From a virus: 64,000 nucleotides of DNA. The stretch lies in the IMG/VR virus record IMGVR_UViG_3300026457_000013, positions 1 through 64,000 of that record; one strand, given 5' to 3'. Made by a program: the position numbers and the translations under genes. How positions within the stretch are numbered: position 1 is the first letter of the stretch; each line of letters opens with the position of its first letter. The notes under the pieces were generated by a model, which made no database searches, was not told the origin of the DNA, and worked only from the letters and a program-made list of their open reading frames with translations. This document shows, piece after piece, positions 205 through 32,219 of this stretch.

Positions 205-221
205 TTTTATCCTTTGTGTTG

Positions 222-550
222 TGTGGCGGTTGTTGGCTAATAAGGTCAACCGCCTAAACCCCAGCCTAGCTTATGCTGCTAAGGCAAATACCTCATCGTT
301 GGCATTTATTTTGTTTGCGTCTACGGCCAGCTAGTGCTAACCCTACGGCTTCTGCATTGCCGAGTTGTCCACGTCTATACTCTTTACCCCGTCGAAACCT
401 GGTCTGGCCCATCAGAAGTATACTGCACTAGCCAGTTGAATACAGCCGACCAGTCTTCCTTATCAGTGAAGTGCAATATACTTCTGGTGGACCAGGCGGG
501 AGTCGAACCCGCGTCCGCAGTACTTTTCTATTAGTTTCATACAACTATAA
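222..550 (-). ncRNA. ssrA: tmRNA, circularly permuted two-piece form
   Basis: Minus strand: T-arm/acceptor GCGGGTTCGACTCCCGCCTGGTCCACCA (CCA at 487-485) precedes a hairpin spacer, then the 5' end GGGCCAGACCAGGTTTCGACGGGG (from 410) and tag frame ANDEVFALAA* (303-271); outer ends approximate. Confidence 0.92.
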
Positions 551-552
551 CT

Positions 553-627
553 TGGTGCTGAATGTCGGATTTGAACTGACGACCTACCGCTTACAAGGCG
601 GTTGCTCTACCACTGAGCTAATTCAGC
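553..627 (-). tRNA. tRNA-Thr(UGU)
   Basis: cloverleaf, anticodon loop CTTGTAA, GTTCAAATC T-loop, encoded CCA. Confidence 0.93.
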
Positions 628-22414: not shown

Positions 22415-23455
22415 TATTGAGTGACAAGTTTAGGGCGAACCAGGGCCAACATTAATCTGTTGGATAAGTTCTTAATCTGTGTTGAAAACACCCTTAACAC
22501 AGACCCCACGAATGGCAGATGGTCGTTGTTAAATGTGGATACTAAAAATATCCGCTCCTGAAAGGTGCAAATCCTAAAAGTATAGTCGGGCGAGAAGGCC
22601 GGGCAATCCAAGGAGATCAACCAAGGGCTATATGCAGAGTGCCAGGTAAAAACAACATTGACCAACCAACCTATTTGTATAATCACCGGCTTGATCCCAT
22701 GCAACTGGTGGTTATACAAATGTGTTGAAATCTGTGGCCAACGTGCTTGCGTAGCTAACCTGCTGCGGAACGGACGCACATGGTGGAAGCTGCAACCACC
22801 CTAAAGGAACCAGCCCCCTAGTTTGTCAATAGTTATAGGGGTTAACCAAAAGACCTGTTACCGTAGCATATACGTAGTTATGCGTTATCTAACACGAGAG
22901 TTAGAAACCAGTGGAGCCGATTCTGCGAAAGCATGGCGGCCACCCACTACATGCCAGTAGCTCAAACGTGCTCAGAGCAAAGGTGTGCTAGAAATAAGCC
23001 CTCTAGCCTGGCCAACAATTCAAACACAGTGCAGAGTGAACATTAGCCTATAGCTAGCTGCCAGCAACTAAAAACAGTGCGTTGCTAAGGTTTGAAACCG
23101 ATCCAGTTTAGGGTCGGGGTTTAGCAGTAACCTAAAACTGCTTGTGCCCTAAGGGGCCAATGCGCCAACAATAAATGGCAAGGCTATAACCACAGTGCCT
23201 GGTTAGTCGCGTTCTTATAATTGTTAATAGCCCTCAACGCAGGGTAATCTAGGTGCAAATCCTAGACGCGCTAGTTGCCCATCTTGGCTGGAACCCAAGA
23301 CCTAAAGCAACTAAGAACAGCAAATGTTCGTGGCATCAACTACACCGACTTACGACGACTCGCAATCGTCTAGAGTGTAGACAAAGATGAATGGTGGTCG
23401 TAGTAGCACTACATAAAAGTAATCCACCCCATTAAACCAAAAACAGCGCAGTTCA
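22415..23455 (+). ncRNA. very large structured ncRNA region (~1 kb), GOLLD/ROOL-like candidate
   Basis: promoter TTGAAG...TATAAT at 22381-22409, terminator at 23455-23479, no credible ORF, many hairpins, embedded tRNA-like element at ~23207-23271. Confidence 0.65.
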
Positions 23456-23479
23456 AAAGCCCGCCTTGTGCGGGCTTTT
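23455..23479 (+). terminator. rho-independent terminator
   Basis: AAAAGCCCGC-CTTGT-GCGGGCTTTT. Confidence 0.85.
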
Positions 23480-23502
23480 GTTTATCTAAAAGGCTATAAA
23501 AC

Positions 23503-23715
23503 ATGTCTCAAGAATTAACCAACCAGCAACTAAAAGACCTTAACGACGATGTCCAAGAATTCATCGACAAGCTAAGGATACACTACAACGACGATACCCT
23601 AGCCATTGCAGCAGCACTAACGCAGTGGGGGCTAAGGCTTTACAAGAGTGAGCTGAGCACACCAGAATTCTACCAACTATTAGTCTACACAATTGAAACT
23701 AACCGCTTCCTCTGA
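23503..23715 (+). CDS. hypothetical protein
   Basis: 70-aa ORF. Confidence 0.65.
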   Translation: MSQELTNQQLKDLNDDVQEFIDKLRIHYNDDTLAIAAALTQWGLRLYKSELSTPEFYQLLVYTIETNRFL

Positions 23716-24039
23716 CCCTAAACCTCAACAACCCTCACTAAAAAATTCACTTGTTTTTGCTTATGCAAATGTGATATAATTTATTATAAATTGAAAAAAT
23801 TTAGAATTAGCAGCTGTACAGTGCAACTAGTACAAAACTCTGGGGGGTGTCCTGGCAAGGGGGGATCCAGGGGGCTTTGTGCTAGGTAGCTCGCAACCGG
23901 TACAAGGCTAGCTAATTCTAGAGATTTAGGGTCAAATCTCGAACCTTAAAAAGAGCAAATATAAAAATTAAAGCAAATTTTCCCACCCCCCAAAAGTGCT
24001 CCAGCCCTAGCAAAACCACAACTAACCAAACAAGCTAAA

Positions 24040-24789
24040 ATGTATATTAGACAGCAAGATATAAAAACCTTAGAACTGGATCACCTAGCCAATCAAGCTA
24101 CTGAATCAATTGAAACCTGGGTAAAAGACAACAATCTTTGCAACCATGCTAGCTGGCTACTACCACAGCTGGTAAATTGGTTTGGCAGCTGGCAACTCTA
24201 CAATGACGGTAAAACTACTGTAGCCAAAAATTGCACCAATAATTGGGCTCGTGCCATTTATAGGATTAGTCGTGTAAAGCGTAGCTTGCTCATTAGAACA
24301 CAAACTAAACTGCCACAGTATGGGCAGCTAACTCCACTCCTTATGTTAGGATTTAAGCGCTATCAAGGTTATAGCTATGAACAATTTCGTGAAATCGAGG
24401 GCTTAGAGTGGTTGCTGGAACCTGATTTATATGAATCACTAGTAAATATAGAGCCTATAGACCTTAGCCAAAACAGACTACTAGCTATACGCACTCAAGG
24501 GTTAATTACAAAAAGCGGATCAAAAACTGGTGAGCTTAAAAATCCAGAGAGTACTTGGTCACTAACAGGTATCAAGGACACTGAATTAGGCAACTACCCT
24601 AAACTTGTGCAAACTATGGTTTGTCAAATTTGGCTAGCACATCCCAAGCATCGTAACAGTGACATGATCTTAGACCCTAATAATTGGGATGCAATGCCTA
24701 AACCATTAATAGATGATACAAGCGGCATTGTTAGTGTATCCAAGGAATCGACCAAGGTGCTAACACGCGAGATATTGCCATGGGACTAA
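24040..24789 (+). CDS. T5-like conserved early hypothetical protein
   Basis: SWLLPQL and YGQLTPLLM..FK resemble, from memory, an early protein flanking the T5 terminal repeat. Confidence 0.6.
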   Translation: MYIRQQDIKTLELDHLANQATESIETWVKDNNLCNHASWLLPQLVNWFGSWQLYNDGKTTVAKNCTNNWARAIYRISRVKRSLLIRTQTKLPQYGQLTPLLMLGFKRYQGYSYEQFREIEGLEWLLEPDLYESLVNIEPIDLSQNRLLAIRTQGLITKSGSKTGELKNPESTWSLTGIKDTELGNYPKLVQTMVCQIWLAHPKHRNSDMILDPNNWDAMPKPLIDDTSGIVSVSKESTKVLTREILPWD

Positions 24790-24849: not shown

Positions 24850-25161
24850 ATGAAATACAACAAGGAACTAACTGACAAGATTGTGGAGCAGTATAAAAGT
24901 GGTCAAACCGCTAAACAAATAGCAGAAGGTCTTGGCGTCGCTGACCGTAGCATAATTGCCAAGCTGAGCAGTTTGGGTGTCTACCAAAAAAAGACGTATG
25001 TCAACAAACGTGGTGAGGTGCCCATCAAGAAGTACGAGATGATCGAACGATTGGCCGAATTGTTGGAGGTGCCAAGCGATCAGCTGGAGAGTTTGGAAAA
25101 AGTCAACAAAAACGTACTTAAATTGCTTGAAAACCGCTTATCTGACCCTAAACCGCAATAA
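24850..25161 (+). CDS. T5 A2/D3-like DNA-binding protein (paralogue 2)
   Basis: IVEQYKSG...RSIIAKLSSLGVY...ESLEKVN. Confidence 0.7.
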   Translation: MKYNKELTDKIVEQYKSGQTAKQIAEGLGVADRSIIAKLSSLGVYQKKTYVNKRGEVPIKKYEMIERLAELLEVPSDQLESLEKVNKNVLKLLENRLSDPKPQ

Positions 25162-25219: not shown

Positions 25220-25798
25220 ATTGTGTGACATAGTGGGTTTCTGCGGTTTAGGGTCAGAATTATTTACTTGACTTGGGTCAGGGATTTGCACTATAATGTT
25301 GGCGCAGACCCCCAAGATTTTGCACTTGTGGAGTTTTGGCACTGGCGCAAGCTCAAAGTTTAGCACTTGAGTTTTTGCACTGGCGCAGCACCACTGGTGG
25401 TGTGCTAAGTTCTAGAACGTATAATGTTATGGACCCTAAACCGTTATGGTTTATATAATTTAGCATGGTTACAGAAATTGGTACGTTATAGAAACTAACC
25501 GACCAGCGGCGGCTTAGGGTCGACAAACGGTGGCATTTTCGCTTGACACCCACGCAAATTTTATGGTAAAATTTGGCGCCATATCGTTATAAATTATATA
25601 AATCATAACCTGGCCAATCGACCCGACCAGTGGCAGTTAGCGGCTGATGAACGGCAGGAAAAACGCTTGACACCCGCGCAATTATACTAGTATAATTGGC
25701 GCCACCGCTATAAAAAATATAGCGGTGCAAATTCTATATTTTATAACCGTTATGTGAAAAATAACGGCCCGCTCGGGGCCGTTATGGTTTTTAGAATC

Positions 25799-26113
25799 CT
25801 AGTCTACCAAATCCATTTCCAGCATGTTATCAATTATATAACCTGGAAGCTTGGTAGTTTCGCAATTCATATAACGCTCTAGGGCTAAGAACTCGCCAAT
25901 CTTGCGATCAAACTTGTCATTATCAGCGCACCAAGCAAAGCTAACGTCATAAAATTTAGCATGACGCGCATTGTGCGCACAAGGCATGGCCACAAGAGCG
26001 AATCCGTTTTCATCACCCATAGGTGCGCGAGTGTGGACAATTCCGCCAGATTCTAGAACGTAGGCAAGCAAGTCCTTACGAATGATTTTTTGGTTTTTGG
26101 TCATTTTTTCCAT
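25799..26113 (-). CDS. hypothetical protein
   Basis: AWCADNDKFDRKIGEFLALER; AAGGA RBS. Confidence 0.7.
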   Translation of the reverse strand: MEKMTKNQKIIRKDLLAYVLESGGIVHTRAPMGDENGFALVAMPCAHNARHAKFYDVSFAWCADNDKFDRKIGEFLALERYMNCETTKLPGYIIDNMLEMDLVD

Positions 26114-26168
26114 AACAGTAGTTCCTTTTAGAGTTTAGAACGGAACGGGTTTTGGCCCGTTCCAGTTT

Positions 26169-26495
26169 TTACAGCGGTTTGCTGTTAGCTAAAGCATCGA
26201 AAATCGCTTTAAGAGCCGACTTGTTAGCCTTAGTTAGCGATTCTATATCGTTTTCCGATAGGCGAAGAATCGCGCCGATTGCATCGGCCGTTACATCTTT
26301 TTTAACGGGCTTTTCGCCAGTTTTTGTAACGTACTGTTTTGCAACATAAACTTTCTCGCGCGAAAGTTTCGCTACAATCGAACGAACGGTTTTACCCATA
26401 GCCGAAGCAATATCTTCGACCTTGACGCCCGCCTGATAGTCCGCTATAATTTTAGCGGTTTGCTCGGCGGTATAGTTAACGGCTTTTTCTGCCAT
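26169..26495 (-). CDS. T5 A2/D3-like DNA-binding protein (paralogue 3)
   Basis: ATG at 26495 after AGGAG; MGKTVRSIVAKLSREKVYVAK. Confidence 0.75.
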   Translation of the reverse strand: MAEKAVNYTAEQTAKIIADYQAGVKVEDIASAMGKTVRSIVAKLSREKVYVAKQYVTKTGEKPVKKDVTADAIGAILRLSENDIESLTKANKSALKAIFDALANSKPL

Positions 26496-26797
26496 TGCTA
26501 TAGCTCCTAGAACTGTTGCAGTTTCGACCCCATGTCCCCTGCAACAGAACCCATTATACACCTATCTGCCTGGCAGATTGTCGCCCTAGCGACAATTGGC
26601 CTACCATTCATCAGGTGGATCAGCGGCAACCCCACCCGACCAGCGGCAGACTGCATCCGACGAACGGCACCCCGCAGGGCTTGACACGCAGGCAAAAATT
26701 ATGATATAATTATATCATAATTTTGGCGCCATCGCTCTAAATTCTATAACTTAGAGCGATATAATAAAAAATATAGCGGCTTGTGCCGCTATATTTT

Positions 26798-27187
26798 TTA
26801 TAACGTCCTCACAATTGGTTCGTTTTTATTTATATAATATTCATGGGTTGCGCTTGGTGGCAAGCCATACTCTAGCATCATGCGCCGCCAATCAGGGCCA
26901 TGCCAAAAGTCTGTGGGGTCTTCGCCATTAATTATATAATCTGCAACATGGATTAGCTCATGCGGTACAATAACGCAAAGCATCTCGGCTTTATAACGGT
27001 TAAAAAACTTGCTAGCAAATTCTACCTCATGCACCTCGCAGTGTGCGAGGCCCGCAGTGCGATACATGCGATTGCTAATTCTAACTTTTGGAACGCTATG
27101 CGTTTTTAGTTCTGGCCACAATTCTTGCATAGCAGTCCAGTGTAGGGTAACAGCGGCTGTTACAACTTTTATCAACGAATCGGCCAT
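26798..27187 (-). CDS. SprT-like zinc metalloprotease
   Basis: RTAGLA, PHELIH, HGPDWR. Confidence 0.85.
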   Translation of the reverse strand: MADSLIKVVTAAVTLHWTAMQELWPELKTHSVPKVRISNRMYRTAGLAHCEVHEVEFASKFFNRYKAEMLCVIVPHELIHVADYIINGEDPTDFWHGPDWRRMMLEYGLPPSATHEYYINKNEPIVRTL

Positions 27188-27423
27188 AATTTATACCTCG
27201 CAATAATTGTTACAAGAAATAGATTGACGATATAGTTTGCTATAAGAATCATATCGCCTTTGGGCACGATATAGACTGTCATGGAAACCATACCAGTCCA
27301 CCACATTGTTATAAAACCTAGTGTAAGCCCGTCTGAGTTTTTAGAACGATAGGATTCAATGGCTTGGGGCAGGGCCGAAGCCCCAAGCAGTATAGAACCT
27401 AGAACGCCGAATGTATCAAACAT
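27172..27423 (-). CDS. PQ-loop/SemiSWEET-like small transporter
   Basis: 83 aa, three hydrophobic helices, ALPQAIESYRSKNSDGLT, IANY. Confidence 0.75.
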   Translation of the reverse strand: MFDTFGVLGSILLGASALPQAIESYRSKNSDGLTLGFITMWWTGMVSMTVYIVPKGDMILIANYIVNLFLVTIIARYKLWPIR

Positions 27424-28108
27424 TGTAATGATCCTTGACCTGAAATTTTTTCCAATCATAGGGCTCGATCTTATCGCGCCAACCTTTAGAACGTACAATT
27501 TTTTGTAGGATTGGAATCTCAAAATCGCGGGCATCCTCAAGGGCAGTGTGGGGTTCAGTAGTAAGATTACCAGTTACAAAACCTGCAACAGTCTCGGCAT
27601 CAGTCTTGAACGTCATATTACCTTTATCGGTCGCATTATTAAAACGATGATTGTCGAGCACAAAACGCTTATACTTTTTGGAACGGCAGATGTTACCTAC
27701 AGCGGCTTGCCAAAGGCAAAAGCGGCTAGTGAAAGAATCTAGAACGATACCAGAGTTAGCACATTTGCTAGCGTCGAAGGCGAGATTGTATGCGGTTAGA
27801 ATAGGGTCATAAGTACCGATACATTTATTAATCCAATTATTTATAGCGGTTACCGACGCAAGCATACGTGTACCAGAATCTAGCATGTTCTGATAATTAG
27901 CACGACGACGCTCAAGGTTAGCAGAGGCCCAGAAACCGTTATTGTTTTTGTCATGGAATAAGGTTGCAGGGTCATAGAACTCACGAACTAGAACGCTACA
28001 ACTATTGTAAATCTTGCCGTGACGGTCACAAACCACAATGGCAAAATCCATAACGGTATCGTTGATAGTCGTTTCAGTATCTAGAACAGCGAAGTATTGT
28101 CGTTTCAT
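27416..28108 (-). CDS. DEDDh 3'-5' exonuclease
   Basis: VLDTET, AYNLAFD, HTALEDA. Confidence 0.88.
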   Translation of the reverse strand: MKRQYFAVLDTETTINDTVMDFAIVVCDRHGKIYNSCSVLVREFYDPATLFHDKNNNGFWASANLERRRANYQNMLDSGTRMLASVTAINNWINKCIGTYDPILTAYNLAFDASKCANSGIVLDSFTSRFCLWQAAVGNICRSKKYKRFVLDNHRFNNATDKGNMTFKTDAETVAGFVTGNLTTEPHTALEDARDFEIPILQKIVRSKGWRDKIEPYDWKKFQVKDHYNV

Positions 28109-28339
28109 AATTTATAACCTAGTAAATGTGACAGAACCCCTAGTATACCACAAAATCCGCGCAAGTGCCAGTTTTGGCTGCCGCCCATCGGCTGTGGGCC
28201 GCCGCACATCCGACCGACCAGCGGTCGCCAGGAGCCGACGAACGGTCGGCCCGGGCCTTGACACGCCTGCAAAAATTATGGTATAATTTTTGGCGCCATG
28301 GCTATAAATTTTATAATTTATAGCCATAACGTGGAACAG

Positions 28340-28355
28340 TGTTCCACGTGAAACC
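28340..28355. other. parS-like site
   Basis: TGTTCCACGTGAAACC, 15/16 to the chromosomal parS consensus TGTTNCACGTGAAACA; extra half-site CGTGGAACA just upstream. Confidence 0.75.
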
Positions 28356-28558
28356 TAAACTTTGTGCAAACTATCCCAAATTGCAAGATTACGCTGTGCC
28401 ATTTTTTGGTACAATTCAGCGCCTACCAAGTGGCCGCGACTAATATCGTTTCTAGAATATTGTAAATATCGTTCTGCATTTTCTAACAACATGCGACTAG
28501 CAAGTTTGTGCCAAAACGTAGAACGATTGGCTAGGTCTTTCCAATATTGCTCGCTCAT
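28355..28558 (-). CDS. hypothetical protein
   Basis: 67-aa ORF, ATGA-coupled. Confidence 0.6.
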   Translation of the reverse strand: MSEQYWKDLANRSTFWHKLASRMLLENAERYLQYSRNDISRGHLVGAELYQKMAQRNLAIWDSLHKV

Positions 28559-28740
28559 ACTAATTCCTCAGGTAAACTGTTATATTCTTTATAAAGGCTA
28601 TCGTACATTCTAATAACCCAACCTATATCGTTCCAATCGCTAACCGTTCCAAAATCTGGACGATAGCCGTATATATCAAAATACAGATCGCAAAATTTGT
28701 CCTGCATTGCCCAAAGTTCTATAGCCTTTACATTTTTCAT
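28555..28740 (-). CDS. hypothetical protein
   Basis: DLYFDIYGYRP motif. Confidence 0.6.
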   Translation of the reverse strand: MKNVKAIELWAMQDKFCDLYFDIYGYRPDFGTVSDWNDIGWVIRMYDSLYKEYNSLPEELV

Positions 28741-28741
28741 A

Positions 28742-29218
28742 TCAATGTCCTTGTTTGCTTGGAACATAAACGCCCCTAATGTTAAAGTAATCACAAACCG
28801 CTTTAAGATATGCTACATTATCCTCATAAAATACAGCGTCATTAAAATGATAACCTAAATTGCTATACAATTTGAAAATCCGTTTTAGTCCTTCAATCTT
28901 GAGAGTAGCACCAGAACGGTTATCATTTTCATTACGGCTAACTATATGGTCAGGTGTACCTAGTCTGCTATAAATAAATGCACGATCAGGGTTCCGCAAA
29001 ATGCGGGCAGTAGCAATAACAACAATACAGTAGGGATCATCGAGATCGTTTTTATATTGTTCTGCAAGTGGTAACAGTGAATCCTCCAGTGCGCGATATT
29101 CATTAGCACGCCAGTAGTCGAGGTCAATGCGCTCAATACCGTTATCAACAATGGTACGATACCTGTGCATACTGCAAACGATTGTGCCATCCATGTCATA
29201 GATTGCTATCCTTTTCAT
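28742..29218 (-). CDS. HAD-superfamily phosphatase
   Basis: IYDMDGT, ATAR, conserved K, FYEDN motifs I-IV. Confidence 0.85.
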   Translation of the reverse strand: MKRIAIYDMDGTIVCSMHRYRTIVDNGIERIDLDYWRANEYRALEDSLLPLAEQYKNDLDDPYCIVVIATARILRNPDRAFIYSRLGTPDHIVSRNENDNRSGATLKIEGLKRIFKLYSNLGYHFNDAVFYEDNVAYLKAVCDYFNIRGVYVPSKQGH

Positions 29219-29537
29219 AACCTATATCCTTATAAAGTCTAGAATGTTGTAAGGTTTAACTTGTCTGCCCTTGCCCTATCGGCCCTATCCGAGGGTAGGC
29301 GGGGTTACTAGCCGCCTAGAGTCATGCCCTACAACAGAAACAAGTATACCTGAATTTTTGAGGTCAAATGTCGTCCAAGCGACAATTGCCTACCATCCAT
29401 ACCTTACAGCCTGCCACACATCAGCCGACCAGTGGTCGACCCTACCCGATGAACGGCGGCCCTGGGGCTTGACACGGCTGCAAATTATATGCTATAATTT
29501 GGCGCGTCAGCGCTCTAAGTTCTATAACCTAGAGCAG

Positions 29538-29553
29538 TGTTTCACGTGAAACT
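29538..29553. other. parS-like site
   Basis: TGTTTCACGTGAAACT; perfect 14-bp palindrome GTTTCACGTGAAAC. Confidence 0.8.
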
Positions 29554-29663
29554 GTATCGTGCTAAAAACCATAGCATGCCCATAACGTACAACCACAGCA
29601 TCATCATAATAATGTTTCTATAATTCATATCGTTATAGTAGGGGCTTGCGCCCCTACCCCTTG

Positions 29664-29990
29664 CTAGTCGGCAGATTGCCTGATAAAATCGCTGATTGCA
29701 CGCAGTGCGCTCTTGTTAGCTTTCGTTAACGATTCTATATCGTTCTCTGAGAGCTTGAGAGCTGCGCCGATAAAATCAGCGTGAACGTCTTTTTTGATGG
29801 GGCTTTCGCCGTTCTTGGTTCTATATTCTTTAGCGACGTAAACCTTTTCACGGCTGAGCTTTGCTACAATTGAGCGAACAGTCTTGCCCATTGCTTGTGC
29901 AATTTGCTCAACGCTAACACCGGCCTGATAGTCGGCCACAATCTGAGCAGTTTGCTCAGGGCTATAATTAGGGGCTTTGGCTGTTGCCAT
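29664..29990 (-). CDS. T5 A2/D3-like DNA-binding protein (paralogue 4)
   Basis: close relative of paralogue 3 (LSENDIESLTKANKSAL shared); promoter TTGACT-17-TATACT at 30052-30024. Confidence 0.78.
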   Translation of the reverse strand: MATAKAPNYSPEQTAQIVADYQAGVSVEQIAQAMGKTVRSIVAKLSREKVYVAKEYRTKNGESPIKKDVHADFIGAALKLSENDIESLTKANKSALRAISDFIRQSAD

Positions 29991-30929: not shown

Positions 30930-32219
30930 ATGCTCGTAGTAAGCAGAAATAACGTAGAAACAGAGTACATTAAGGAGTTTGATCCTACCAAGCGATTTAT
31001 CAAACTGCCTATCGACAACTACTTACGACTCTTAAATCTATACGATACCATCAACAGGCCCCAAATCGCACTAATCAATAGTGTTAATGATCCACAGTAT
31101 AGGTTTATCTGTGCTGCACTTGCCAGACGATTGGGCAAAACATACATAGCCAATGTTATAGGTCAGCTGGTTACACTAGTACCCAACAGTAATGTACTTA
31201 TCATTAGCCCTAACTATAATTTGAGTGCAATCAGTTTTGAGCTGCAGCGTAGGTTAATCAAGCATTTTGACCTGGAAGTAACCCGTGATAACCTCAAGGA
31301 CAAGATTATTGAGCTCAGCAATGGATCAACTATCAGAATGGGATCTATTAGCACAGTGGATTCAACAGTTGGTCGTAGTTATGACCTTATAATATTCGAC
31401 GAGGCTGCACTTAGTGAGCATGGCGAGGACGCATTTAACATTGCCTTACGCCCTACACTAGACAAACCATCGGCAAAAGCCATATTTATTAGCACACCAC
31501 GTGGTAAAAACAACTGGTTTTCAAAGTTCTGGTCGCGTGGATTTGACCCTAACTTTCCAGAGTGGGTTAGTTTGCAGGCAGATTATTCGGAGAATAGCCG
31601 CATGGCACAGTCGGATGTTGATGAAGCACGTAGATCCATGTCGAAGTCGGAGTTTGAGCAGGAATATATGGCAAGTTTTACTAGTTACTTAGGCCAAATT
31701 TATGAAGGGTTTAAGCCTGAGTATATCCTAGACCAACTACCAGACCTGCGCGGTGAAGCTATTGCTGGTGTAGATGTAGGATACAAGGATGCCACTGCCT
31801 GGGTTAACATAATATACGACTATAATACCGACTGTTTTTATGCTGTAGAAGATTATTTGGAGCCAGAGCGTACTACTAGAGAACATGCCGAACATTTTCA
31901 TAGAATGATAGATAGTTGGAGTATACAAACTGTATTTATTGATAGTGCAGCAGCACAATTTGCTGCTGACCTAGCTTACAACTACGATATTGCTACTACT
32001 AAAGCTAAAAAAGACGTACTTGCAGGCATTGCATACGTGCAAACACTAGTCCAGCAAGGCAGATTTAGGGTACACAGAAATTGTCACCACGTTATAGCTA
32101 TGCTAGATGCTTATCAGTGGGATAACCGCGAAAATTTAGCGCGTGAACGTCCTAAACACAACGAGTACAGTCACATGGCTGATGCTGTTCGTTATGCACT
32201 ATACAGTTATGTAGTATAG
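30930..32219 (+). CDS. terL: terminase large subunit (T5-like)
   Basis: ARRLGKT Walker A, VGRSYDLIIFDEAA, ISTPRG, FEQEY, SHMADA.RY. Confidence 0.95.
   Translation: MLVVSRNNVETEYIKEFDPTKRFIKLPIDNYLRLLNLYDTINRPQIALINSVNDPQYRFICAALARRLGKTYIANVIGQLVTLVPNSNVLIISPNYNLSAISFELQRRLIKHFDLEVTRDNLKDKIIELSNGSTIRMGSISTVDSTVGRSYDLIIFDEAALSEHGEDAFNIALRPTLDKPSAKAIFISTPRGKNNWFSKFWSRGFDPNFPEWVSLQADYSENSRMAQSDVDEARRSMSKSEFEQEYMASFTSYLGQIYEGFKPEYILDQLPDLRGEAIAGVDVGYKDATAWVNIIYDYNTDCFYAVEDYLEPERTTREHAEHFHRMIDSWSIQTVFIDSAAAQFAADLAYNYDIATTKAKKDVLAGIAYVQTLVQQGRFRVHRNCHHVIAMLDAYQWDNRENLARERPKHNEYSHMADAVRYALYSYVV

What the first reader, a model, noticed from the sequence alone, without database searches (positions are those of the whole stretch)
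28328..29553. Two bacterial chromosomal parS sites in a lytic phage, each directly after a repeat module
Seen: TGTTCCACGTGAAACC (28340-28355, plus an adjacent half-site) and TGTTTCACGTGAAACT (29538-29553). Both are intergenic and lie immediately 3' of a module hairpin; no parA/parB is present in this window. Established: TGTTNCACGTGAAACA is the conserved ParB-loading centromere of bacterial chromosomes. Inference: the first-injected DNA recruits host ParB (and ParA/SMC) to position, pull or protect the phage genome, or titrates ParB away from the host chromosome.
Basis: partly seen in the sequence, partly recalled or inferred. Interest (0 to 1): 0.85.

Follow-up and report, generated by a model that had tools for sequence, protein, structure and literature searches.

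The report
Host-type parS sites in lytic phage
A river phage related to T5 carries two copies of the short DNA sequence that bacteria use to load their chromosome-partition protein ParB, but has no ParB gene of its own, so it most likely borrows the host's ParB, as the Bacillus phage phi29 is known to do.

Summary
Two near-consensus chromosomal parS palindromes lie at 28340-28355 and 29538-29553. They are the only two core matches in the 82-kb contig. Each sits 30-45 nt behind a conserved promoter-hairpin module.

In 80 related viral contigs I found 51 further sites in 31 loci. All lie upstream of the terminase gene, and 18 of the 23 loci with at least 3 kb of upstream DNA have one. The 16-mer stays fixed while hairpins and flanks change.

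No ParB, ParB-HTH or ParA-type domain is detectable in this contig. No ParB domain is detectable in five relatives, one of them 96% complete. The phage's two-piece betaproteobacterial tmRNA points to Burkholderiales hosts. Three such genomes have ParB and the same parS variants.

Best reading (about 0.7): real loading sites for host ParB. What they do afterwards is inferred; positioning or partition of phage DNA is my first choice. "First-injected DNA" is unproven.

It is a new variant of a known kind, because phi29 uses host Spo0J-parS. The same stretch was noted before in an overlapping window of this genome, not on other DNA.

In passing: exact parS is at least 60-fold over-represented in viral contigs, mostly without ParB.

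The parts
28340..28355 (.). parS site 1, TGTTCCACGTGAAACC (15 of 15 specified positions minus 1)
   Evidence: The same 16-mer is found at the orthologous place in 14 distinct contexts of relatives.
28330..28338 (.). Extra parS half-site (CGTGGAACA). With the left half of site 1 it forms a 19-bp palindrome (28330-28348). It is probably the remnant of a tandem second site.
   Evidence: Relatives L042 and L055 carry two full sites 17 nt apart here.
29538..29553 (.). parS site 2, TGTTTCACGTGAAACT. Its 14-bp core is a perfect palindrome.
   Evidence: Among distinct contexts of relatives and this contig, 10 carry the exact consensus 16-mer and 11 carry this contig's form.
28214..28327 (+). Module 4: box A 28214-28224, box B 28235-28245, TTGACA 28258-28263, TATAAT 28282-28287, TTGGCGCC 28290-28297, hairpin 28298-28327. 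It points toward the terminase and is antisense to the local genes.
   Evidence: family D18; 12 of 12 promoter match.
29425..29535 (+). Module 5: box A 29425-29435, box B 29446-29456, TTGACA 29469-29474, TATAAT 29493-29498, TTGGCGCG 29499-29506, hairpin 29512-29535.
29542..29628 (-). Conserved 28-codon hydrophobic mini-ORF. Its last three codons and its stop lie inside parS site 2.
   Evidence: The peptide is conserved with substitutions in relatives.
28355..29218 (-). Minus-strand gene cassette between the two sites: ORFs 28355-28558, 28555-28794 and 28742-29218. The last is HAD-like and matches a PHROG annotated as polynucleotide kinase at E 4.7e-9.
29664..29990 (-). Small HTH protein (PHROG 'transcriptional regulator, D5-like'). 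It is one of three paralogues; the others are 24850-25161(+) and 26169-26561(-). It is a candidate phage-encoded binder in the rival reading.
   Evidence: (family D10).
30930..32219 (+). Terminase large subunit, used as the positional anchor for relatives.

Best explanation
The two palindromes are genuine chromosomal-type parS sites kept by selection in a clade of virulent, T5-like river phages that encode no ParB. During infection the host's own ParB dimers bind them. By established ParB biochemistry, the dimers then close as CTP-dependent clamps and slide onto the flanking phage DNA. This turns the terminase-proximal region into a partition-type nucleoprotein complex.

What is shown: the sites exist, they are conserved in sequence and position while everything around them changes, no phage ParB is detectable, and bacteria of the likely host clade use the same site variants.

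What is inferred: that ParB binds, and what follows from binding. My ranking of the downstream role, given binding, is:
- Positioning, partition or compaction of the infecting or replicating phage genome through ParA and/or SMC, as phi29 does with Spo0J: about 0.35.
- Coupling or insulating the strong module promoters that fire toward the sites: about 0.2.
- Draining ParB from the host chromosome: about 0.1.
- Something else: about 0.1.
For: (1) Two sites with 1 mismatch or fewer plus a half-site lie within 1.2 kb and nowhere else in 82 kb.

(2) In 80 relatives with 73-100% terminase identity there are 51 sites with 2 mismatches or fewer, in 31 loci. All lie 1.2-6.1 kb upstream of terL and none lies downstream. 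My arithmetic gives a chance expectation of about 1.4 for the 756 kb. Of the 23 loci with at least 3 kb upstream, 18 have a site.

(3) The 16-mer is nearly invariant, at 1.78 bits per position against 0.40-0.48 in the 40-nt flanks. The preceding hairpin changes sequence while keeping its pairing. The site selection inflates the first figure.

(4) The only variable positions are 5 (T or C), 12 (A or G) and 16. Positions 5 and 12 give the same core variants seen in bacterial chromosomes next to parB.

(5) No ParB_N in this contig or in 5 relatives, including a 96%-complete 102-kb genome that carries one exact site. No HTH_ParB and no ParA-type domain in this contig.

(6) The phage carries a two-piece betaproteobacterial tmRNA (96.5 bits against a gathering score of 84). 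The 3 of 151 sampled Burkholderiales-order genomes with that tmRNA type all have ParB and 2-12 core sites.

(7) Precedent: phi29 has five parS sites and uses host Spo0J (PMC2731898, passages read).

(8) Exact parS is found in at least 119 viral-contig stretches, against 2 for a reversed control palindrome.
Against: - No binding data of any kind.
- The host is not identified. The one bacterial MAG with the identical tmRNA tag has a one-piece tmRNA, is of unknown completeness, and showed no ParB_N and no core parS.
- Five of the 23 relatives with enough upstream DNA lack a site. Two of them, L072 and L077, have full module arrays with a different downstream motif instead. The site is therefore dispensable or replaceable.
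- Only 49 of 101 modules carry one.
- Twelve of the 16 nt of site 2 overlap the end of a conserved mini-ORF, which contributes some constraint. No synonymous change is seen there, and site-1-type sites have no such overlap.
- A divergent phage-encoded binder that Pfam models miss cannot be excluded. This contig is only 78% complete.
Confidence: 0.7

Rival explanations
1. The palindromes are operators for a phage-encoded DNA-binding protein, for example one of the three small D5-like HTH paralogues that flank the module array. That protein would control or roadblock the strong module promoters. On this reading the likeness to parS is convergence or mimicry without ParB.
For: - The sites always lie 27-54 nt behind a conserved promoter.
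- Three HTH paralogues are encoded in the same 5-kb block.
- Distant relatives carry another conserved inverted-repeat motif at the same place, so this position behaves as a general landing pad for DNA binders.
Against: - Identity to the chromosomal consensus reaches 16 of 16 in 10 distinct contexts, and the core variants are those of bacterial parS. Convergence on all positions is very unlikely.
- Spacing to the promoter is not fixed and not in helical phase.
- The HTH proteins show no ParB-like match.
Confidence: 0.12
2. Host ParB does bind, but the purpose is host takeover. Hundreds of replicating phage genomes, each loading many ParB clamps, would strip ParB from the host origin region and derail host segregation or division.
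For: - Same sequence evidence as the best explanation.
- No phage partition genes that would point to a segregation machine of its own.
Against: - Only 1-4 sites per genome. A sponge would be expected to multiply its sites.
- Strict placement next to the last modules is not needed for titration.
- T5-type phages degrade host DNA early (recalled), which would make titration pointless.
Confidence: 0.08
3. The palindromes act only as nucleic-acid structure, as a terminator or processing hairpin between convergent transcription units. Alternatively, they are conserved only because they overlap coding sequence.
For: - In many relatives site 2 sits inside a longer palindrome.
- It overlaps the end of a conserved mini-ORF.
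- The sites lie between a plus-strand promoter/terminator and the 3' end of minus-strand genes.
Against: - Structural hairpins in the same modules covary freely, whereas this 16-mer keeps its sequence.
- No T-run follows it on either strand.
- Site-1-type sites overlap no ORF beyond 1 nt.
- No synonymous variation in the overlapped codons.
Confidence: 0.05
4. Chance, or a neutral passenger picked up from host DNA.
For: The count at up to 3 mismatches in the window is unremarkable.
Against: - 51 further sites at the same place in relatives against about 1.4 expected.
- The flanks have phage-like, not host-like, composition.
Confidence: 0.02

Closest known systems
phi29 / Nf parS sites used through host Spo0J (ParB) in Bacillus subtilis (PMC2731898, passages read; the primary 2005 paper is recalled, not seen)
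   Same: A virulent phage without its own ParB carries several host-type chromosomal parS sites. Host ParB is exploited to handle the phage genome.
   Different: - Here the phage is a large T5-like siphovirus with a probable Gram-negative, non-sporulating host, so spore entrapment cannot be the purpose.
- It has only 1-4 sites.
- Each site is coupled to a conserved promoter-hairpin module next to the terminase genes.
DnaA-box array in the injection-stop (iss) region of T5-like phages (Davison, bioRxiv 10.1101/866236; abstract and outline read)
   Same: Conserved binding sites for a host chromosome-maintenance protein lie in repeat-rich DNA of the pre-early / terminal-repeat region of T5-type phages. 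A role in handling incoming DNA has been proposed.
   Different: - The host protein is different (ParB, not DnaA). There are no strict DnaA boxes in this contig and only 1 relaxed match in 24-31 kb.
- The T5 model is itself untested.
- Location in first-injected DNA is not shown here.
Plasmid and plasmid-prophage ParABS cassettes (P1, N15 type; recalled)
   Same: parS centromeres on a phage genome that load a ParB.
   Different: Those elements encode their own ParA and ParB with private parS specificity and are temperate. Here there is no parA, parB or tyrosine integrase, and the site is the universal chromosomal one.
Chromosomal parS clusters near oriC
   Same: Same 16-bp palindrome and the same tolerated variants. 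In sampled Burkholiales-order genomes the sites cluster within a few kb of parB.
   Different: These lie on a virus and sit behind promoter modules. No origin function is shown.

Membership tests
Chromosomal-type parS (ParB loading site) | 16-bp palindrome matching TGTTNCACGTGAAACA | tested here: met
   One mismatch each. The exact consensus is present at the orthologous place in relatives.
Chromosomal-type parS (ParB loading site) | Sequence kept by selection rather than by descent alone | tested here: met
   The 16-mer is fixed while the hairpins and flanks diverge. 51 sites in 31 of 80 relatives, all at one region. Caveats: ascertainment by mismatch threshold, and mini-ORF overlap at site 2.
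Chromosomal-type parS (ParB loading site) | A cognate ParB is present in the cell | tested here: inconclusive
   The phage has none. Three of 3 host-clade genomes with a two-piece tmRNA have ParB and the same site variants. One MAG with the identical tag had neither. The true host is unknown.
Chromosomal-type parS (ParB loading site) | Specific ParB binding, CTP-dependent clamp loading and spreading | not testable with these tools
   Needs EMSA, BLI or ChIP-seq.
Self-contained ParABS partition cassette (plasmid / plasmid-prophage type) | Own parA and parB genes next to parS | tested here: not met
   No ParB_N, HTH_ParB or AAA_31 in 82 kb. No ParB_N in 5 relatives.
phi29-type exploitation of host ParB | Virulent phage, no own ParB, several host-type parS sites | tested here: met
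   No tyrosine integrase in this contig or in the 96%-complete relative. Structural synteny with a Demerecviridae phage.
phi29-type exploitation of host ParB | Host-ParB-dependent segregation of the phage genome (into the prespore) | not testable with these tools
   The probable host clade does not sporulate (general knowledge), so any segregation role would have to be of another kind.
T5 iss-type array of host-protein boxes | Ordered set of DnaA boxes in untranslated terminal-repeat DNA | tested here: not met
   0 strict DnaA boxes in the contig and 1 relaxed match in 24-31 kb. The terminal repeat is not defined.
Promoter operator | Fixed position or helical phase relative to the promoter | tested here: not met
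   The offset from TGGCGC to the site varies from 27 to 54 nt with no preferred phase.

The most novel reading that the evidence does not exclude
Orphan host-type parS sites are a widespread and so far unrecognised device of virulent and other tailed phages, not a phi29 curiosity. On this reading, phages place one to a few chromosomal parS sites near the terminase or genome-end region so that host ParB-CTP clamps load on the phage DNA, possibly on the first DNA to enter. There they would act as a ratchet, shield or positioning handle.

In the T5-like clade studied here, the strictly one-directional array of strong promoters would confine or direct the sliding clamps.

- At least 119 viral-contig stretches carry the exact site, against 2 for the control palindrome.
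- Five of 7 near-complete viral genomes among them have no ParB domain.
- In 2 of 5 loci inspected the site lies within about 2 kb of terL.
Probability: 0.3. Interest if true: 0.85.

Novelty: new variant of a known kind. Interest (0 to 1): 0.68.

Why it matters
If host ParB really loads on these sites, a lytic phage of Gram-negative freshwater bacteria uses the host's chromosome-partition machinery without encoding any part of it. That would extend the single worked example (phi29 and spore entrapment) to a different phage family, host group and purpose.

It would also give ParB-CTP clamp biology a natural viral substrate. The strong excess of exact parS in viral contigs, mostly without ParB, suggests the phenomenon may be general and worth a systematic census.

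The claim is directly testable with purified ParB, and with any cultured relative.

Tried and rejected
- **Phage-encoded ParB.** Searched with ParB_N, HTH_ParB and AAA_31 in this contig, and with ParB_N in five relatives. Nothing found.
- **Neighbouring proteins of unknown function.** The 249-aa protein at 24040-24789 gave no Pfam or PHROG hit and only sub-threshold Atlas neighbours. The HTH paralogue gave no meaningful PDB match.
- **Known RNA family over the sites.** Rfam at E up to 1 gave four matches in 24-31 kb, all below gathering score and none at the sites.
- **Host identification.** A back-translated tmRNA-tag pattern found 4 contigs. Three look like mis-binned phage fragments: low GC, with homology to this phage in all three (weak in two, strong in one). 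The fourth is a Burkholderiaceae MAG with a one-piece tmRNA and no ParB or parS detected. tmRNA BLAST did not single out one genome.
- **Transcripts and genome ends.** All runs are kept as contigs, so strand, starts, ends and local depth cannot be read. Depth over the two sites is low, at 0.12-32 in the bins that cover them. I draw no conclusion from it. Contig joints between modules (25549 to 28272, and 28290 to 26732) may be population variants or assembly jumps at repeats.
- **Physical ends / 'first-injected DNA'.** The 102-kb relative is collinear with this contig and its two ends abut inside the module array. The map is therefore circular and the break is an assembly break. Many relatives' contigs start inside or next to a module, which fits breaks at repeats.
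- **Cultured relatives.** DNA search of the phage collection found only a 140-nt terminase match to Vibrio phages. Vibrio phage Gary has no core parS, only one 1-mismatch hit far away.
- **DnaA or IHF box arrays, as in T5 iss.** Not present.
- **Literature.** Searches found engineered parS/ParB labelling of phages, plasmid-prophage systems, and phi29/Nf. They found no report of chromosomal parS in a Gram-negative virulent phage. Subscription-only papers and supplements were not searched. The Streptococcus pneumoniae ParB-competence paper (PMC4488948) was seen only as a listing and the start of its abstract.

Full report
**1. The observation**

The window reads TGTTCCACGTGAAACC at 28340-28355 and TGTTTCACGTGAAACT at 29538-29553. 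Each differs from TGTTNCACGTGAAACA at one outermost position.

Directly left of site 1, CGTGGAACA (28330-28338) is a third half-site. In relatives L042 and L055 the same place carries two complete sites 17 nt apart, so the half-site is probably the remnant of a tandem site.

The 14-nt core GTTNCACGTGNAAC occurs at these two places only in the whole 82,252-bp contig, and the reversed control gives 0.

The tool's count at up to 3 mismatches is not significant: 6 found, 2.18 expected, and 6 of 100 shuffles reach 6. My own arithmetic for sites with 1 mismatch or fewer gives about 0.006 expected per 64 kb.

**2. The local anatomy**

Five near-identical modules lie on the plus strand at 25543, 25667, 26681, 28258 and 29469, with a weaker one at 25268. 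Each module consists of:
- two GC-rich boxes 21 nt apart;
- a promoter scoring 12 of 12 (11 of 12 for the modules at 25268 and 25543), TTGACA-18-TATAAT;
- the conserved word TTGGCGC(C/G);
- a hairpin whose sequence differs from module to module.

Only the last two modules, those nearest the terminase, are followed by parS.

The genes between the modules are on the minus strand:
- a SprT-like protein, 26798-27187;
- a 230-aa protein, 27416-28108, matching a PHROG of unknown function (the exonuclease-like label rests on my reading of its N-terminal motif);
- a HAD-like protein, 28742-29218;
- small D5-like HTH paralogues.

So the module promoters fire antisense to the local genes and toward the terminase operon, whose terL gene is at 30930-32219.

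Site 1 abuts the stop codon of ORF 28355-28558. Site 2 overlaps the last three codons and the stop of a conserved 28-codon hydrophobic mini-ORF on the minus strand.

**3. Relatives**

The terminase found 496 related stretches in IMG/VR, and the best 80 were kept (73-100% identity).

- Scanning them gave 51 sites with 2 mismatches or fewer, in 31 loci. All lie 1.2-6.1 kb upstream of terL and none lies in or downstream of it. I expect about 1.4 by chance in the 756 kb.
- Many contigs simply end before the region. Of the 23 loci with at least 3 kb upstream, 18 have at least one site. The five without (L048, L053, L072, L076, L077) are among the more distant relatives.
- Every site follows a module. 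Of 101 modules with enough downstream DNA, all on the terminase strand and none on the other, 49 have a site within 110 nt. These are always the terminase-proximal ones.
- In 46 distinct 96-nt contexts, the 16-mer carries 1.78 bits per position against 0.48 and 0.40 in the flanks. This figure is inflated by how the sites were picked.
- The listing shows the essential point without statistics. Hairpins are replaced by unrelated sequences that still pair and spacers vary, yet the 16-mer stays the same.
- Ten distinct contexts have the exact consensus.
- The offset from the promoter varies from 27 to 54 nt. That argues against a phase-locked operator.

**4. No ParB in the phage**

- No ParB_N, HTH_ParB or AAA_31 match in six frames of the 82-kb contig, which is 78% complete.
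- No ParB_N in five relatives. One of them is a 102-kb, 96%-complete genome whose only core site is an exact parS.
- That genome is collinear with this contig and its ends abut inside the module array. The map is circular and the physical ends remain unknown.
- No tyrosine integrase in either genome.
- The structural block is syntenic with Vibrio phage Gary (Demerecviridae) at about 33-55% amino-acid identity.
- In Gary, the T5 pre-early genes (the A2-like DNA-binding protein, the A1 DNA-transfer protein and dmp) lie directly upstream of terS/terL. This is the only support for calling the region 'pre-early' or 'first-injected'.
- Gary itself has no parS.

**5. Host clue**

The contig encodes a two-piece tmRNA with tag ANDEVFALAA. 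It scores 96.5 bits against the beta_tmRNA family, whose gathering score is 84.

Of 151 sampled genomes of one GTDB order, 3 have such a tmRNA above the cut-off. I take the order to be Burkholderiales, from the record title of the Burkholderiaceae MAG that served as centre. Their tags are ANDEHFAIAA, ANDERFALAA and ANDENFALAA.

All three have ParB, and they have 12, 2 and 6 core parS places. In the two I read, the sites lie within a few kb of parB. The full 16-mers are TGTTTCACGTGGAACA, TGTTCCACGTGGAACA and TGTTTCACGTGAAACA. These are the same variant classes as in the phage clade.

Against this: a Burkholderiaceae MAG with the identical tag has a one-piece tmRNA and showed neither ParB_N nor a core site. 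Its completeness is not given.

**6. Reading**

Full identity to the chromosomal consensus, the same tolerated variants, conservation against a changing background, and the absence of a phage ParB together make host-ParB loading the best explanation. I put it at about 0.7.

The steps after binding are inference from established ParB biology: CTP clamp closure, sliding, ParA stimulation and SMC loading. The one experimentally supported analogue is phi29. Its genome holds five parS sites and host Spo0J is involved in moving it into the prespore (PMC2731898, passages read). On that basis I rank positioning or partition of phage DNA first.

Placement between a strong promoter and the 3' end of convergent genes leaves room for a regulatory or boundary role. 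In many relatives the hairpin behind that promoter is followed by a T-run.

The rivals are scored in their own sections: a phage-encoded binder, ParB titration, pure structure or coding constraint, and chance.

**7. Relation to what is known**

The closest known systems are:
- phi29/Nf, which follow the same principle;
- the conserved DnaA-box array in the T5 injection-stop region (bioRxiv 10.1101/866236, abstract read). That is another host chromosome protein, in a comparable genomic region, with an untested model;
- plasmid-prophage ParABS cassettes, from which this differs by lacking parA and parB.

My literature searches found no natural case in a Gram-negative virulent phage. I therefore file it as a new variant of a known kind.

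**8. Wider pointer**

The same letters read backwards occur in 2.

- None of the 119 stretches is kin of this phage; there are only two weak tblastx hits.
- Only 1 of the 119 loci encodes a ParB homologue, as detected with two bacterial ParBs.
- Of the 19 parent contigs of at least 30 kb, 1 has ParB_N above the cut-off and 3 have it at E of 0.01 or better. Five of the 7 records that are at least 90% complete have none.
- In 2 of 5 loci inspected, the site lies within about 2 kb of terL.

This is a partial sample and was not followed further.

**9. Verdict**

Interest is 0.68.

Noticed in passing
IMG/VR loci L088-L206; control loci L228-L229: The exact chromosomal parS 16-mer is in at least 119 viral-contig stretches (capped), against 2 for the reversed control palindrome. 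The stretches are unrelated to this phage. Only 1 of 119 loci has a detectable ParB homologue. Only 1 of 19 larger contigs has ParB_N above the cut-off, and 5 of 7 near-complete records have none. In L162 and L132 the site is within about 2 kb of terL.
   Followed up: partly
window 22868-23801: RNA-run contigs reach a depth of 340-45,894 here, against 0-130 in neighbouring bins, in four metatranscriptome runs. This looks like a very abundant non-coding RNA. Several internal skips (23012 to 23106, 23012 to 23159) recur across runs. The data are contigs only, so strand and ends are unknown.
   Followed up: partly
window 217-609 (-): Phage-encoded two-piece (permuted) betaproteobacterial tmRNA with tag ANDEVFALAA, next to a tRNA-Thr. 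There are 11 tRNA genes in the window.
   Followed up: partly
window 29542-29628 (-): A conserved 25-28-codon hydrophobic mini-ORF (…LWLYVM…FLARY(S/C)FT) ends inside parS site 2. The A/T difference at parS position 16 is the Cys/Ser difference in the peptide.
   Followed up: partly
L072, L077, L076, L078 (module arrays upstream of terL): Distant relatives keep the promoter core and TTGGCGC. They replace the GC boxes with another upstream box, and replace the hairpin/parS with inverted repeats built on a different conserved word (…AAACAAAAGTATT…). The module therefore looks like a scaffold with exchangeable binding sites.
   Followed up: no
window 25543-29535 and relatives: All 101 modules found in this contig and 80 relatives point the same way, toward the terminase, and none is on the other strand. 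They are antisense to the genes between them. In many relatives the hairpin is followed by a T-run, which would give RNAs of about 40 nt.
   Followed up: partly
window 25549/28272 and 28290/26732: Contigs in three RNA runs join one module directly to another and skip the cassettes between. These are either recombinant variants in the population or assembly jumps at the repeats (table 5c).
   Followed up: no
L207, L208, L210 (genome contigs): Short contigs binned into Rubritalea and Flavobacteriales/Flavobacteriaceae MAGs carry the same tmRNA tag. They have about 40% GC and homology to this phage, so they are probably mis-binned phage fragments.
   Followed up: partly
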